This document shows, piece by piece, positions 4,873-60,360 of a stretch of 64,000 nt of DNA (position 1 is the first letter of the stretch; every line of letters starts with the position of its first letter). Under the pieces are notes generated by a model. The model did not search any database, was not told the DNA's origin, and was given only the letters and a program-made list of their open reading frames with translations. Source of the DNA: the human T2T-CHM13v2.0 reference genome, Homo sapiens; assembly GCF_009914755.1 (NCBI RefSeq), contig NC_060925.1; one strand, written 5' to 3'. The position numbers and the translations under genes were made by a program.

Positions 4873-5148
4873 CTCAAGCTTTTAAAATCGAGACCACCCC
4901 AGAATCTAGATATCTTGCTCAGATTGGTGACTCCGTCTCATTGACTTGCAGCACCACAGGCTGTGAGTCCCCATTTTTCTCTTGGAGAACCCAGATAGAT
5001 AGTCCACTGAATGGGAAGGTGACGAATGAGGGGACCACATCTACGCTGACAATGAATCCTGTTAGTTTTGGGAACGAACACTCTTACCTGTGCACAGCAA
5101 CTTGTGAATCTAGGAAATTGGAAAAAGGAATCCAGGTGGAGATCTACT
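4873..5148 (+). CDS. VCAM1: VCAM1 exon 2: Ig domain 1 (QIDSPL integrin-binding loop)
   Basis: Acceptor ttttgcag|CT, donor T|GTGAGT, 276 nt; translation [19 protein letters not shown]...GIQVEIY. Confidence 0.98.
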
Positions 5149-18632: not shown

Positions 18633-18894
18633 AACACCTATTCTTTGTGCTAGGCTGGGTAAATAATTATATTAAGGAACATGAAAGAAGCATAAGCCAT
18701 GTACTCTCTTAGTTAAAACATGATCATTTCCAACAATCCAGCAATGCTTGACTTCTTTACTTGCCCTTCTTAACATTTAATGCAAACGCTAAGCACAAAT
18801 AGCTCCAGGGAAGCTGTTGTTGATGTCGCTAAATTAATATGGAGTTGGTTTATATTTCACTCAATCAGGGATGTCTTTTAAATTCTCTTTACAG

Positions 18895-19161
18895 TTACTC
18901 CAAAAGACATAAAACTTACAGCTTTTCCTTCTGAGAGTGTCAAAGAAGGAGACACTGTCATCATCTCTTGTACATGTGGAAATGTTCCAGAAACATGGAT
19001 AATCCTGAAGAAAAAAGCGGAGACAGGAGACACAGTACTAAAATCTATAGATGGCGCCTATACCATCCGAAAGGCCCAGTTGAAGGATGCGGGAGTATAT
19101 GAATGTGAATCTAAAAACAAAGTTGGCTCACAATTAAGAAGTTTAACACTTGATGTTCAAG
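18895..19161 (+). CDS. VCAM1: VCAM1 exon 8: Ig domain 7
   Basis: Acceptor ctttacag|TT, donor G|GTGAGT, 267 nt; [19 protein letters not shown]...SLTLDVQ. Confidence 0.98.
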
Positions 19162-20102
19162 GTGAGTTTGTTTTGAGTTTTTGTTTTCTTGGTAATAGTT
19201 CAGAGGTTCCAAGGATTACTAAGAGTTTCCAATATTTGATGAATGAGTTGGCAAAATGGAGCTGTGGTTTATTTCTTAAGGATTCTTGGAAAAATCAAGC
19301 ACAGCTGCTTTATCCTATAAAGTTTAGCCAGGAAGTTGACATTAATCATTCGTGACTGAGGAATTCCTGCTTGCTTTTTTCAGTTTACAATTTATCATTT
19401 GTCTCTGAGGTCTTGCAGTTGCTAAATGTTTAACCATATTTTCAGACCTTTTCCCGGGAGGTTATAAGGAAACTAAAGAAGTAGGATTGGCACATTGAAA
19501 AAGAAGGGTTCTATCCAGACCCTCTTCCTTTCTACCAGAAGGAAACACTATTTTCTGAACATGGAGTAACTGCAATTTTCTGGATTGACTCTTTTCAGGA
19601 TAATAATTGGGAATAGTAAACTTGATCCTGAACAACATAAAAAAATCTCTCGACTATCGAAAAGCCTCATTAAAATTCCAACCCACTTGCCATCCTACTC
19701 TATTCTGGTGGACAGAGAAAGAGAGGAGCAGTATCCTCATTGGAGAAACTTCAGGGGCCCCTTAATCTCCTAAGCCCTCTTGTGAATGCACAGTAGGTAG
19801 GATCTGCTGATCTTATTGGTGTAAACAAAATACATCAGCCTTGGCTGATCAGTATCACACCCCTTGCACACCAATTAGCTGCTATTGTGTAATGGAGGCC
19901 ATACTTGGCGGTGGAGTGCAAACAGGACTGCAAACAAATGCCAAGTCTTAAGAGGTCTGGCACTTGGCTATTGGAGTGAGCAATCACTTGTCAATGCAGA
20001 GAAAATTTGAATCTACATCAGAAACAGGTAAAATTTTTGTTCGTCTACCCAAATTTCTCAAAATGGCAAGCCTTACCGTATGTATGTTTTCCATCTTCAC
20101 AG

Positions 20103-20377
20103 TACCTCCTCAAAACATGAGAATAGCTGTATAGCTATACATCCATCTAGAAATGTTAAAGAAGGGGAAAACATCACGATTATATATGAAACTTCTAGTC
20201 ATCCACCTGCAGTGATTATCCTGAAAAGAATTGATCTAGCCAATGAAGTTACTATGTGTTCAAAGAAGGGAACATTTACTTTGTATCATGTCACTCAAAA
20301 TGATTCAGGGGTATATGTAATCAGTGCTTCCAATGAGGTTGGGGATGATTCTGGACAGATTGCAATCTCAGTTATGA
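20103..20377 (+). pseudogene. Pseudo-exon encoding an eighth Ig-like domain in VCAM1 intron 8
   Basis: Acceptor ttttccatcttcacag|TA and donor A|GTAGGT, both phase 1. Length 275 nt = 267 + an 8-nt duplication (atagctgt/atagctat). The corrected frame aligns without gaps to domain 7. Confidence 0.9.
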
Positions 20378-22171
20378 GTAGGTTGAATTTACTCATCCCT
20401 ATTTTCTTTAATCCTTAATGCCTCTGGGCCACCTTTAATTAAGCCTAGCCCTGGGAAATTGGTCCCCTAACATTTCTGTAATTCTTTTGTTAATTAATTG
20501 TGACCTTTTAAAGACACATCAAACCTGCTTCTCTACTTTTTGACTCTGTCTCACACACATTGCTTTATTTTCTAATTGCTTTATCAAATTAGCCACTTAC
20601 ACAGTTGCTACTTTTTACTCATTATTTAAATGAACAATCAAAGAATATTAAGCGCTCAGCTAGAAACTCATGCCCCCAAACTGAATATAGTTTAAACTAG
20701 CTAAATTTTAATGAAGACCAAAAAATGGATATTTTTCTGGGTATTTTGAACTAGATTTCTTTTGCATTTGGCTGGATTTTTTATTTGTTTCATTTTGTCT
20801 TAGCTTGAACGTATTCCATTAATAGAAATCATCAGGATTTTTAAAAGATATTCAGTGTTTATATGACAAATAGAAAATTGTATTTGAAGGTTGCCCTGGC
20901 AACTACCTTGGCAGCAAATTTGTATTTTTCTGCCAATGCCTGTGGGGAAGACTGAAAGGCAAAAGATAATGTATATTACATTGAAAAGAAAGAAAGAAAA
21001 GAAATAGAAATAGTATTTCTGTTTCTCAGCATGTCATCAATATTGATGCCTATCCATAATCATGTTGATGGACATCCCATTCAAATATTACCCTTATACT
21101 TTGACTAGCTCAGCTCTAGCAAGGGAAAGTCAAAAAGTGAGACAATTATCATTATGCTTAGGGTGAACTGTTTTTCTTCAATAATTTGAAAAAGTGACTT
21201 CACATTATCTGATGCTCGTGATTCTTTTTACTTGGTTGACCTCCAGTGATTAGAAAGCTCTGGAAAGAATGTAGTAATCACCAAAGTCAGATCTCTAGTT
21301 TCTGCCAGGACTGAGACAATGTATATGCCACTTAGTGAAACTTAATACTTGTGTGGTCACATGATGCTGTGCAAAGTATAAACAGGAGTGAGTCTTCAGT
21401 AAATGACACACTATCTTCTTCAGCTGCTCTTATAAAGTTAAGATGTTAAGCAGTATAGCAGCTGTCAGATGATTTTTTAGCAGATTAGAAAGAATACTAA
21501 TTTTAAAGTTTTTGTATGCTGTTACCTACTGTACTCCATTTACAACTAAGTGGCAAAAGCAAAATGTAGAGAGAAAAAAATGTTATTAGTGTTTAAAAAA
21601 TATTGTTTTTGGTGCCAACTAGGCCAAGCAGTGAGTCAGGTGCTGGCTGTTCAGTGATGGACTAAAAAGAAAATAGATATACATGTCTTGATGTAATTTT
21701 TAGCTTAGGGGAGGAAACTAAACTTAATAAGTAATTACATGGATAAATGTTTAATTAAAAGCTGTAATAAGGGTTTTGAAGGGAAAACGAGTGGGTTTTG
21801 AAAATATATTGAGGTTCTTAATTTAGAATGAGGGAGATATAGATTAGAGAATGCCTCTAAGAAACATTTAAGCTGTAACATAACACTGTCCAAAGAACTC
21901 TAGTTTATCAAAAGATGATATAAATGCTGAAGAGGAAAAATGTATTAATATGCCCTATTTCTGACATAAAAAACATAGAAACTTCTGTATATCTCTGAGA
22001 AAGCCATTGGCAAGATTTTTTTTTTCTCTTACGATCTTATTTGTGGCATTTAGCTATAATGGTCACACTCTGAATATTATAAGGATTTTCTTAGAGAACT
22101 GGTTAGTCATTTCAATTCATGGTCATCAGAGTCCCAGTTCTTTAGTAGATATTTTTATTTCCCCAAGCAAG

Positions 22172-22515: not shown

Positions 22516-22676
22516 GAAGAGAAAACAACAAAGATTATTTTTCTCCTGAGCTTCTCGTGCTCTATTTTGCATCCTCCTTAATAATACCTGCCATTGGAAT
22601 GATAATTTACTTTGCAAGAAAAGCCAACATGAAGGGGTCATATAGTCTTGTAGAAGCACAGAAATCAAAAGTGTAG
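22516..22676 (+). CDS. VCAM1: VCAM1 exon 9 coding part: stalk, transmembrane helix, cytoplasmic tail
   Basis: Acceptor ttttccag|GA; [56 protein letters not shown] at 22674-22676. Confidence 0.98.
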
Positions 22677-29508: not shown

Positions 29509-30596
29509 GAATCTATGATATCATATATACACATTTAATACATAAAATAGAATTATGTATACTGTGGATATATCCCCAAATACATTAAACTAGTATTTTA
29601 AAAATTGTACCTTTTTTGACAATAAGATCTGGAAATGTTAAGTTTTGTTCTTTTATTTCTTTGACTTTTCCAATCTGTCCCCTCTTTACCACAAATATCC
29701 ACATTGCTATGGAAGATTTCAGATCGGTACAAAAAATGCAAATAGAACAGTTAATGAACTCTTTTTAGACTTCAAAGGTAGTTTCTTGAACTATGACTAC
29801 ATACAACAACATGGGTGACTCTCACAAAAAGAAGTAAAAGAAACAATTGGTAAAAGAGACCATACTATATAATTTCATTTATATGTAGCTCAAAAGCAGG
29901 CAAAACTAATACATGGTGTTAAAAGTCAGGATATTAGTTACTCCTTTGGTTACAGTGACTAGAAGGAGTAGAAGAGCTCCTTTTGGGTTCTGTTTTTGTT
30001 CTGTTGCTTGATCTGGGTGGTGGAATTTTTAATAAAAATTTACATTTCATAGGCAAATTCTTGAAAATCAAGAGCCTAGACGGATGGGGGGATTAGAGTG
30101 TATGCATTGGAAAGAGAGCAAAGAGAGAAGCAAATTACCTTGCCCACCTCCCTCCCACTTTTCATCTATCCTGGGTAATGAGAAGGAGAGTTATGTGATA
30201 AGACTTTATAGGAGACAGTATAACTTGTGTTCAAAGGGATAACGTGGCATAGAGAGGCCTCAGATAAAGGAGAGATTTCAACACAGAGAGAATGGCAAAC
30301 ACGAGGAAGACTCCTGCAAGCTGAGCCAAGGCATTCAGAGAGACCATACTTGCCTTACACTAGAAACCATCACATCTTTGCAGGGAAGCCAAGTCAGCTG
30401 TGCTCATCACTGCCTAGAGATGGATGCCTAGTAAACAGCTGCCTATAAACCCTTTTCATTTTCGAGTAAGATGCTGTACATGACCTGAAGTTTTGCTGAG
30501 TCCTAGCCCTTGTCAATAACCCAGGGCACTATAAAGTCCCCTTAAGGACAGGGTTAGATTCTTTATTCTTGCTGATTTTGGTTAGGAGGGGCTTTA

Positions 30597-30919
30597 GGCT
30601 GGGCGCGGTGGCTCACCACCTGTAATCTCAGCACTTTAGGAGGCCAAGGCAGGCAGATCACTTGAGCCCAGGCGTTTGAGACCAGCCTGGGCAACATGAC
30701 GAAACCCCATCTCTACCAAAAAGTACCAAAAAATTTGCAAGGAGTGATGGCTCATACCTGTACTCGCAGCTACCCAAGAGGCTGAGGTGGGAGAACCACA
30801 TGAGCCCAGGAAGTCGAGGCTGTGGTAAGCTGTGATCACACCACTGCACTTCAGCCTGGGTGACAGAGTGAGACCCTGTCTAGAAAGAAAGAAAAAGGAA
30901 AGAAAAGAAGGAAAGAAAG

Positions 30920-58928: not shown

Positions 58929-60360
58929 CCAACAAGTGTACAGAAAATGCTCAATATCAATTGTCATCAGGAAAATGCAAACCAAAACCACAATGAGATA
59001 TCATCTCACCTCAGAAAGACTATGATCAAGAAGACAAAATAAATGCTGGCAAGGATGCAGAGAAAAGGGGACTTATACATACACTGTTTGTGGGACTGTA
59101 AATTACTTGTAGCCATTATGGAAAACAGTATAGAGACTTCTCAAAATATTAAAAATAGAACTACCTTATGATCCAGCAATTCCACTACTGCTTATATGTA
59201 TCCAAATGGGAAGCGGTGTGTCAAACAGATATCTGTACTCCCATGTTTATTGCATCATTAGTCACAATAGCCAAGATATGAAATCGACCTGTGTCCACCA
59301 ATGGATAAATGGATAAAGAAAATATGGTATATATATATACAAGGAGATACTATTTAGCCATAAAAAAGAATGAAATCCTGTCATTTGTGACAACATGGAT
59401 CAGTCTAGAGGACATTATGTTAAGTGAAATAAGCCAGCACAAGAAAATAAATAACCATATGTTCTCAATCCTATGTGGAAGCTAAATAAGTTGACATTGT
59501 AGAAGTAGAGAGAATGGTGGTAACTAGAGCCTGAGAAGGGTAGAGGGGGGAGAATTGGAAGAGCCTGGCTAGAAGATACAAAATTGCAGTTAGATAGTGT
59601 TCTATAGCACCACATGGTGACTATAGTTAATAATAATTTATTGTATACTTTAAAATAGTTTGAAGAGATAATTTTGAATGCTCCCAACACAAAGAAATAA
59701 TAAATGTTAGTGGCAATGGATACACATAATAAAATATCACATATCACACTGCACTGCCTAAATATTGTGATGGTTAATATTAGGTGTCGACTTGATTGGA
59801 TTGAAGGATGCCTAGATAGCTGATAAAGTATTGGCTCTGGGTGTGTATGTGAGGGTGTTGCCAGAGGAGTTAACATTTGAGTCAGTGGACTGGGAGAGGA
59901 AGACCCACCTTCAATGTGGGTGGGCACCATCCAATCGGCTGCCAGGGTGGCTAGAAAAAGAAGGCGGCAAAAGGTGGGATAAACTGGCTTGCTGAGTCTT
60001 CTGGTTCTCATCTTACTCCTGTGCTGGATGCTTCTGTCTGTTCCTCCTCCCCTCAAACATCAGACTCCAGGTCCTTTGACCTTTGGACTCACCAGTGGTT
60101 TGCCAGGGCCTTTGGCCACAGACTGAAGGCTGCACTCTAGGCTTTCCTACTTTTGAGGCTTTTGGACTTGGACTGAGCCACTACTGGCTTCTTTTTTCCT
60201 GAGCTTGCCGACAGCCTACTGTGGGACTTCACCTTGTGATCATGCGAGCCAATTCTCCTTAATAAACTCCCTTTCATGTATACATATATCCTATTAGTTC
60301 TGTCGGTCTGGAAAACCCTAATACAAATATACGCAATTATTATGTGTCAATTAAATTTAA
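58929..60360 (+). mobile_element. L1MA 3' fragment (sense), split by MLT2
   Basis: Flanked by the degenerate TSD aaaaataaattgtgcata / aaaaatcaattggccata. Confidence 0.85.
59766..60325 (+). mobile_element. MLT2A (HERV-L) solo LTR
   Basis: tgtgatggttaatatt...cttgattggattgaaggatgc...ctattagttctgtc...ctaataca; perfect TSD AATAT. Confidence 0.92.

What the first reader, a model, noticed from the sequence alone, without database searches (positions are those of the whole stretch)
20103..20377. Hidden eighth Ig-domain exon in VCAM1 intron 8, killed by an 8-bp tandem duplication
Seen in sequence: a polypyrimidine/AG acceptor (ttttccatcttcacag|20103) and a donor (A|GTAGGT, 20378) bound a 275-nt block in the same phase 1-1 as every VCAM1 Ig exon. 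Spliced to exon 8 it reads VPPQNMRIAV-TAG (stop at 20132-34). The stop lies inside an imperfect 8-nt tandem duplication (atagctgt 20123-30 / atagctat 20131-38). Deleting one copy gives exactly 267 nt, the length of exons 4, 7 and 8. It also gives an open 89-aa domain: VPPQNMRIAIHPSRNVKEGENITIIYETSSHPPAVIILKRIDLANEVTMCSKKGTFTLYHVTQNDSGVYVISASNEVGDDSGQIAISVM. This aligns without gaps to domain 7 at 25/89 identities by my count (PS..VKEG, IILK, D.GVY, N.VG). The two canonical Cys positions read Tyr (TAT, one change from TGT) and Ile. No other stop or frameshift has accumulated. Inference: ancestral VCAM-1 had an eighth, membrane-proximal domain that was lost relatively recently in the human lineage. 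I recall an 8-domain VCAM-1 form reported in rabbit, which needs verification, so the domain may be known in other species.
Basis: partly seen in the sequence, partly recalled or inferred. Interest (0 to 1): 0.92.

Follow-up and report, generated by a model that had tools for sequence, protein, structure and literature searches.

The report
Dead eighth Ig exon in VCAM1
Intron 8 of the human VCAM1 gene holds the recognisable remains of an eighth immunoglobulin-domain exon that is broken by an 8-base duplication and has a weak splice donor; it is a molecular fossil, not a working part of the gene.

Summary
Window 20103-20377 is a 275-nt block with an AG acceptor and a GT donor. It lies on the VCAM1 strand between the domain-7 exon and the transmembrane exon. 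It is unmasked and in no RefSeq transcript. In exon-8 phase it reads 9 codons and then TAG. From 20131 a second frame is open for 82 codons. Those 82 residues hit Pfam I-set and Ig_3. They align without gaps to VCAM1 domains 7, 3 and 6 (z 16-17), which are also their best non-self matches in the whole human genome. The first nine codons match the N-termini of those domains (2 of 8732 intronic 9-mers do as well). So the frame shifts exactly at an imperfect 8-nt tandem duplication. Removing either copy gives 267 nt and 89 open codons. I could test neither orthologues nor the rabbit 8-domain form, because all protein searches are length-limited and the 1991 papers are not held. Rodent fragments join domain 7 directly to the transmembrane exon. 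"Recent loss in the human lineage" is therefore not shown. A rough decay estimate allows anything from a few million years to about 100 million years.

The parts
18895..19161 (+). VCAM1 exon 8 (Ig domain 7). It is the upstream partner and sets the phase (its last base starts the split codon).
   Evidence: RefSeq annotation. It is the closest paralogue of the block.
20078..20102 (+). Acceptor region of the dead exon: a pyrimidine-rich tract ending in cag, with a cttac branch-point-like motif about 30 nt upstream.
   Evidence: The weight-matrix score is 6.5 bits, the 16th percentile of 365 real acceptors and within the VCAM1 range of 4.1-9.2. Only 18 of 1038 intronic AG decoys reach it. The branch-point motif is read by eye against a consensus I recall.
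20103..20377 (+). The vestigial eighth Ig-domain exon as it stands: 275 nt, phase 1 at both ends.
   Evidence: (unmasked, in none of the 3 RefSeq transcripts).
20105..20134 (+). Head of the exon in exon-8 phase: 9 codons (PPQNMRIAV), then the premature TAG at 20132-20134.
   Evidence: The 9-mer matches the N-termini of D3, D6 and D7 (4, 2 and 1 identities of 9; summed BLOSUM 43 against a null mean of -24). Only 2 of 8732 intronic 9-mers reach that score.
20123..20138 (+). Imperfect 8-nt tandem duplication (7 of 8 bases) that shifts the frame.
   Evidence: Leaving out either copy gives 267 nt and 89 open codons. The 'I-A' codons of each copy fall on the same alignment columns.
20131..20376 (+). 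Body of the domain: 82 open codons in the shifted frame. It has the DxGxY motif and two N-x-S/T sequons. It lacks both Cys and the Trp.
   Evidence: I-set, Ig_3; gapless, columns 7-88 of 88, 13 invariant columns; Ig-like model, TM about 0.8.
20375..20383 (+). Degenerate 5' splice site TGA|gtaggt.
   Evidence: 1.9 bits, 1st percentile of 352 real donors. All 8 real VCAM1 donors have gt[ag]ag and score 5.0-12.2.
22516..22676 (+). Coding part of VCAM1 exon 9 (stalk, transmembrane segment and tail). It is the downstream partner.
   Evidence: RefSeq annotation. The rodent fragment P0002 joins D7 directly to this sequence.

Best explanation
The block is a vestigial exon. It is the remains of an eighth, membrane-proximal Ig domain of VCAM-1, of the same subtype as domains 3, 6 and 7, sitting between the domain-7 exon and the transmembrane exon.

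In this human genome it is dead in two ways. First, an 8-nt tandem duplication within its first ten codons shifts the frame and creates a TAG 30 nt into the exon. Second, its 5' splice site has decayed to the level of intronic decoys. The spliceosome therefore most likely skips it, joining exon 8 to exon 9 and giving the known 7-domain protein. If the exon were included, the stop would lie 243 nt upstream of the last exon junction. By the established 50-55 nt rule such a transcript should be degraded by nonsense-mediated decay. Failing that, it would encode a protein of domains 1-7 plus a 10-residue tail with no membrane anchor.

Shown: the Ig homology, the register, the place of the frameshift, and the weak donor. 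Inferred: that the exon was once spliced and translated, that it was under purifying selection for most of its history, and that it corresponds to the extra domain I recall for rabbit VCAM-1.
For: - Ig identity: Pfam I-set 26.0 bits (cut-off 23.7) and Ig_3 E 2.2e-6. The Atlas feature search's first hits are I-set clusters at 0.95. The AF2 model (pLDDT 69.6) matches I-set/C2 domains in the PDB at TMq 0.75-0.81.
- VCAM1 kinship: scores to D7, D3 and D6 are 100, 96 and 82, with z 16-17 and 0 of 500 shuffles reaching them. In a six-frame search of the whole human genome the best non-self matches are VCAM1 exons 8 and 4.
- Register: the MAFFT alignment is gapless, with the 82 residues in columns 7-88 of 88. 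The 6 codons before the duplication plus these 82 make 88, the same as exons 4, 7 and 8.
- Frameshift: the head in exon-8 phase matches the domain N-termini, and only 2 of 8732 null 9-mers do as well. So the two frames meet at the duplication.
- Age: there is no nucleotide similarity to any VCAM1 exon (best E 0.22), whereas the pairs E2/E5, E3/E6 and E4/E7 are 74-82% identical. The domain is therefore old, yet its frame has 0 stops in 89 codons. Stop trinucleotides make up 6.35% of intron 8, which gives P about 0.003 for 88 open codons.
- Splice sites: the acceptor is preserved and the donor is degenerate.
- Transcripts: the block is in none of the 3 RefSeq transcripts.
Against: - No orthologue was seen. 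Searching with the block found no named protein of 70-224 aa (14 unnamed candidates were withheld). The two D7-based searches gave only 3 named proteins (hamster, Apodemus, marmot), and none has an eighth domain.
- Full-length proteins of other species were out of reach of the length filter, so past use as an exon is inferred and not shown.
- All three hallmark core residues (Cys, Trp, Cys) are absent, and Ig_3 falls below its cut-off.
- The AF2 model is of middling confidence. Its 4-row alignment consisted of Ig domains, which biases it.
- No RNA data were available, so 'skipped' rests on the annotation and on the weak donor.
- Only one assembly was read. Whether the duplication is fixed in humans was not tested.
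Confidence: 0.78

Rival explanations
1. The block is still used in humans as a rare cassette exon. Including it would either send the mRNA to nonsense-mediated decay (a poison exon that tunes VCAM-1 levels) or yield an anchorless domain 1-7 protein, which would be a splicing route to soluble VCAM-1.
For: The acceptor is as good as the real VCAM1 acceptors: 6.5 bits, and only 18 of 1038 decoys reach it. The donor is a canonical GT with G at +5. The early stop lies upstream of the transmembrane exon.
Against: The donor scores at the 1st percentile of real donors, and 125 of 830 intronic GT decoys do as well or better. The block is in none of the 3 RefSeq transcripts. None of the readable papers I opened mentions such an isoform, and the listing shows no title on one. 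No RNA data could be examined.
Confidence: 0.1
2. The block is a by-product of the ancient exon duplications that built VCAM1. It was never (or only briefly) a spliced, translated exon in the lineage leading to primates.
For: No transcript or protein containing it was seen in any species here. It lacks both Cys and the Trp. Its donor is weak.
Against: The block is as diverged from D7, D3 and D6 as these are from one another: protein scores of 82-100 against 110-123, and no nucleotide similarity. A never-selected copy of that age should be full of stops. Here 89 codons are open apart from one frameshift, in an intron where 6.35% of trinucleotides are stops. The exon boundaries, phase and length are kept to the base.
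Confidence: 0.08
3. The block is a recent duplicate of exon 8 (domain 7) that is now decaying.
For: Domain 7 is the best protein match.
Against: Identity to D7 is only 25 of 89 residues, and there is no nucleotide match to exon 8 (best E 0.76). The old E4/E7 pair still shows 73.5% nucleotide identity. D3 matches the block almost as well as D7 does.
Confidence: 0.01
4. The block is a chance open frame with chance Ig-like motifs.
For: Open frames of 128 codons or more occur elsewhere in the window (15 of 7756).
Against: The controls gave 0 of 4 Pfam hits.
Confidence: 0.01

Closest known systems
VCAM1 exons 4, 7 and 8 (Ig domains 3, 6 and 7)
   Same: Same strand. Same phase 1-1. Same length once 8 nt are discounted (267 nt, 88 full codons). 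The alignment is gapless with 13 columns invariant across all four sequences, including the P-S, E-G and D-x-G-x-Y motifs.
   Different: The block has a frameshift and an early stop. It has no Cys-Cys pair and no Trp. Its donor is gtaggt where the three exons have gtgag (scores 1.9 against 11.2-12.2). It is not in any RefSeq transcript.
The eight-domain VCAM-1 reported for rabbit endothelium (Cybulsky and co-workers, 1991).
   Same: An extra Ig domain next to the membrane is what this block would have encoded (inference from its position between exon 8 and exon 9).
   Different: Nothing could be compared. Neither the papers (PMC52403, PMC1886101) nor a rabbit sequence could be obtained. The only trace is a search listing in which PMC2290915 holds 'eight Ig-like' once and 'rabbit' six times. 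Its body text could not be read.
Species-specific VCAM-1 splice forms: human 6- and 7-domain forms, mouse 3-domain GPI-linked form
   Same: The number of Ig domains in VCAM-1 is known to differ by splicing and by species (passages read in PMC7692297, and PMC5979609).
   Different: Those are live alternative exons. This one is broken and is mentioned in neither review.
Vestigial exons / unitary pseudo-exons left in introns after lineage-specific exon loss (general knowledge)
   Same: Recognisable coding homology, preserved boundaries, few disabling lesions, no use in annotated mRNAs.
   Different: This is a whole, self-contained protein domain of a much-studied adhesion receptor. Its loss leaves the rest of the protein in frame.

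Membership tests
Immunoglobulin superfamily domain (I-set / C2 type) | Profile match above the curated cut-off | tested here: met
   I-set scores 26.0 bits against a cut-off of 23.7, E 1e-5. But Ig_3 scores 28.5 against 30 and Ig_2 15 against 27, both below their cut-offs.
Immunoglobulin superfamily domain (I-set / C2 type) | Conserved Cys (strand B) - Cys (strand F) pair and core Trp (strand C) | tested here: not met
   The alignment columns that hold C, W and C in D3, D6 and D7 read Y, V (or no W) and I in the block. Some genuine Ig domains lack the disulfide (general knowledge), so this weakens membership but does not exclude it.
Immunoglobulin superfamily domain (I-set / C2 type) | D-x-G-x-Y motif before strand F and a beta-sandwich fold | tested here: met
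   D58, G60 and Y62 are invariant. The AF2 model has six strands of 3 or more residues, pLDDT 69.6. Foldseek PDB hits to Ig domains have TMq 0.75-0.81, and 85 matches have E <= 0.001. The model is biased by an alignment made of Ig domains.
Exon of VCAM1 | Same strand, placed between neighbouring exons, phase 1-1, boundaries in register with the paralogous exons | tested here: met
Exon of VCAM1 | Open reading frame through the exon | tested here: not met
   TAG at 20132-20134 in exon-8 phase. The block is 275 nt, not 267 nt.
Exon of VCAM1 | Functional splice sites | tested here: inconclusive
   The acceptor is within the range of real sites. The donor is at the 1st percentile. The weight matrix comes from only 352 and 365 sites taken from gene-dense parts of chr1. 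No experiment was done.
Exon of VCAM1 | Present in transcripts | tested here: not met
   It is in 0 of 3 RefSeq transcripts. Other annotation sets and RNA reads were not available.
Orthologue of the rabbit eighth domain | Sequence similarity and the same position in a rabbit cDNA or gene | not testable with these tools
   No rabbit sequence or paper could be reached.
Poison (NMD) cassette exon | Inclusion in a fraction of transcripts, stabilised when NMD is blocked | not testable with these tools
   No RNA data. Only the position of the stop, 243 nt before the last junction, fits.

The most novel reading that the evidence does not exclude
The dead exon is not wholly silent. In activated human endothelium a small share of VCAM1 pre-mRNA includes it. 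That would produce an NMD-sensitive transcript or an anchorless domain 1-7 protein with a 10-residue tail. Part of the circulating soluble VCAM-1, a widely used biomarker now ascribed to shedding, would then come from splicing. A second bold reading: the eighth domain worked for most of mammalian history as a disulfide-less stalk domain, and was lost independently in primates and rodents.
Probability: 0.08. Interest if true: 0.6.

Novelty: new member of a known kind. Interest (0 to 1): 0.33.

Why it matters
VCAM-1 is a central adhesion receptor in inflammation and atherosclerosis and a target for drugs and imaging. The reviews I could read describe it as a 6- or 7-domain protein in humans.

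A well-preserved relic of an eighth domain shows that the ectodomain was once longer. It gives a clean example of how a whole protein module is dropped: a frameshift plus decay of the splice donor, with the rest of the protein staying in frame. It would also explain why rabbit VCAM-1, used in atherosclerosis models, is recalled to carry an extra domain.

In practice, the block is a place where variants or antisense reagents could create or reveal aberrant splicing, and it should not be mistaken for a new coding exon.

It changes nothing about how human VCAM-1 works. The extra domain itself was probably described in rabbit in 1991, so the surprise for a specialist is modest.

Tried and rejected
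1. Orthologues through the search for homologous proteins.
- One search used the block's 128-codon open frame, scoring residues 34-115. It returned nothing, with 14 unnamed candidates withheld.
- One search used the 157-codon open frame around exon 8, scoring domain 7. It gave hamster P0001 (220 aa) and Apodemus P0002 (96 aa).
- One search used P0001, scoring domain 7. It added marmot P0003 (328 aa).
- None of the three proteins holds an eighth domain. Full-length VCAM-1 of any species, human included, was never obtained.

2. The Atlas gave only generic Ig clusters and no usable ids.

3. Literature. I found no readable text on an 8-domain VCAM-1 or on a pseudo-exon in VCAM1.
- The two 1991 Cybulsky papers are not held, whether asked by DOI, PMC id or PubMed id. 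PMC3151426 is not held either.
- For PMC2290915 and PMC2119269 only the abstract and references can be read.
- I therefore cannot say whether this block is already in print. I have a vague and unverified memory that the 1991 gene-structure paper looked for a human counterpart of the rabbit domain.
- I did not ask for any supplementary files.

4. Open-frame length on its own was rejected as evidence, because similar frames occur by chance in the window.

5. Recent duplication of exon 8 was rejected.

6. Other hidden Ig exons in the window: none found.

7. Dating. Only a rough lesion-count estimate was possible. It rests on assumed indel-to-substitution ratios of 0.08-0.2 and kappa 2. The conversion to years rests on recalled neutral distances.

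Full report
WHAT IS THERE. Window 20103-20377 lies in intron 8 of VCAM1, 941 nt after exon 8 and 2138 nt before exon 9, on the gene's strand. It is not repeat-masked and belongs to none of the three RefSeq transcripts. A pyrimidine-rich tract ending in cag precedes it, and gtaggt follows it. With the last base of exon 8 as the first base of a split codon, the block reads V, then PPQNMRIAV, then TAG at 20132-20134. A second frame, starting at 20131, is open for 82 codons up to the last full codon before the donor. The units at 20123-30 and 20131-38 are an imperfect tandem repeat, matching at 7 of 8 bases.

IS IT MORE THAN CHANCE.
- The 82 residues hit Pfam I-set (E 1e-5, 26.0 bits, cut-off 23.7) and Ig_3 (E 2.2e-6, 28.5 bits, cut-off 30).
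- In Smith-Waterman comparisons with the seven VCAM1 domains they score 100, 96 and 82 against D7, D3 and D6. The z-scores are 16-17, and 0 of 500 shuffles reach the observed score. Scores against D1, D2, D4 and D5 are not significant.
- In a six-frame search of the whole human genome the best non-self matches are VCAM1 exon 8 (E 0.0024) and exon 4 (E 0.02). Exon 7 follows in sixth place at E 0.61, behind weaker matches on chromosomes 19 and 20.
- Within the window, tblastn with D3 and D7 finds the block at E 6.6e-9 and 4e-8, and finds no other unannotated Ig-like place.
- Four other unmasked long open frames of the window gave 0 of 4 Pfam hits.
- The open frame alone proves little: 15 of 7756 open frames in the window reach 128 codons or more.

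REGISTER AND THE FRAMESHIFT. MAFFT aligns the 82 residues with D7, D3 and D6 without a single gap. They occupy columns 7-88 of 88, and 13 columns are invariant. Six codons lie between the acceptor and the first repeat unit, and 6 + 82 = 88, the number of full codons in exons 4, 7 and 8. The nine head codons, read in exon-8 phase, match the N-termini of D3, D6 and D7 (4, 2 and 1 identities of 9; summed BLOSUM score 43). Only 2 of 8732 stop-free 9-mers translated from VCAM1 introns reach that score. The other two frames at that spot give a stop or a score of 2.

So the true frame runs in exon-8 phase up to the repeat and in the +2 frame after it. The net +8 nt sits at the repeat. Imperfect 8+8 tandems that are not microsatellites occur at 2.5e-3 per base in the window, overlapping registers counted. 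About 0.076 are therefore expected in the 30 bases where one was needed. This is supportive but not decisive by itself.

AGE AND HISTORY (INFERENCE). The block has no detectable nucleotide similarity to any VCAM1 exon (best E 0.22). The old internal duplicates E2/E5, E3/E6 and E4/E7 still show 74-82% identity. At protein level the block is about as far from D7, D3 and D6 (scores 82-100) as D7 is from D3 and D6 (110-123). It is thus an old domain and not a recent copy of exon 8.

Stop trinucleotides make up 6.35% of intron 8, so 88 codons would stay open by chance with P about 0.003. A block this old that has only one frame-breaking lesion must have been under purifying selection for most of its existence. 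That is the main argument that it was once a real exon.

I treated stops and frameshifts as Poisson events. About 3.2% of substitutions in this sequence would create a stop, and I assumed indel-to-substitution ratios of 0.08-0.2. The most likely neutral divergence since release from constraint is then 0.02-0.04, with a 5-95% range across those ratios of about 0.006-0.17. Using neutral distances that I recall rather than computed, this spans from a few million years to roughly the age of the primate-Glires split. 'Recent' is therefore possible but not shown.

The Y, V and I at the Cys, Trp and Cys columns would need at least five base changes in nine bases if the working domain was canonical. 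That is unlikely within such a small divergence. I think the working domain had already lost at least part of its canonical core (inference, testable with orthologues).

SPLICE SITES. I built weight matrices from 352 GT donors and 365 AG acceptors. These came from MANE-select exons in twenty 10-kb stretches of chr1.
- The block's acceptor scores 6.5 bits. That is the 16th percentile of real sites, within the VCAM1 range of 4.1-9.2, and 18 of 1038 AG decoys in VCAM1 introns reach it.
- Its donor scores 1.9 bits. That is the 1st percentile, below all eight VCAM1 donors at 5.0-12.2, and 125 of 830 GT decoys reach it.
- All eight real donors read gt[ag]ag; the block has gtagg after a TGA exon end.

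The matrices are small and come from gene-dense regions, so the percentiles are rough.

FOLD. AlphaFold2 on the four-row alignment gave a six-stranded model (pLDDT 69.6, pTM 0.58; the other four models scored 38-44). Foldseek against the PDB returned Ig domains of FGFR1, IgLON proteins, IZUMO1, CD22, titin and Dscam. TMq was 0.75-0.81 for the best hits, and 85 matches had E <= 0.001. The Atlas feature search gave I-set clusters at 0.95. The model is only moderately confident and is biased by its alignment.

OTHER SPECIES. This is the gap. The protein word search reaches only proteins of 0.55-1.75 times the query length. No stop-free query longer than 157 residues exists here, so full-length VCAM-1 of about 740-830 aa was out of reach.
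- The block found no named protein of 70-224 aa.
- D7-based searches gave three rodent fragments. Apodemus P0002 runs from D7 straight into the sequence of human exon 9. Hamster P0001 ends at D7. Marmot P0003 runs from D7 into what looks like unspliced intron and matches the block only through its D7.
- So the eighth domain is absent from at least one rodent gene product, and nothing was learned about rabbit.
- All ten literature searches found no readable statement on an eight-domain form. Two reviews whose passages I read give only 6 or 7 domains for human and 3 or 7 for mouse.

VERDICT. The block is best read as a vestigial eighth Ig-domain exon of VCAM1. It is disabled by an 8-nt tandem duplication and a decayed donor, and it is skipped in the known transcripts. 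The evolutionary claims (ancestral eight-domain protein, recent human-lineage loss, identity with the rabbit domain) are plausible but untested here. It is a new example of a known kind of thing, possibly already noted in 1991, and of modest interest.

Noticed in passing
window 23 (call number) / exon ends at 5148, 7737, 13774: Four of the eight VCAM1 donors (exons 1, 2, 3 and 5) have a non-G base at position -1 and score only at the 13th-23rd percentile of real donors. All keep a perfect gt[ag]agt on the intron side. Exon 5, the one known to be alternatively skipped, has the weakest donor (5.0 bits).
   Followed up: partly
window 59418-60059 (- strand): An unmasked 214-codon open frame about 36 kb downstream of VCAM1 is the longest non-exonic open frame in the window. 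It has no Pfam hit at E <= 0.01. It is probably chance or an unmasked old repeat.
   Followed up: partly
window 19162-19352: The reading frame of exon 8 stays open for 64 codons into intron 8 (the open frame 18882-19352 has 157 codons). The marmot database protein P0003 likewise runs on past domain 7 into non-VCAM sequence, as if intron 8 were retained in that gene model.
   Followed up: no
window 30378-30467 and 30558-30607: Two annotated enhancer elements ('active region') lie about 7 kb downstream of VCAM1, next to masked repeats.
   Followed up: no
window 19539: The best-scoring AG decoy in intron 8 (10.5 bits, above every real VCAM1 acceptor) lies about 380 nt after exon 8. I did not examine whether an open frame or a donor follows it.
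   Followed up: no
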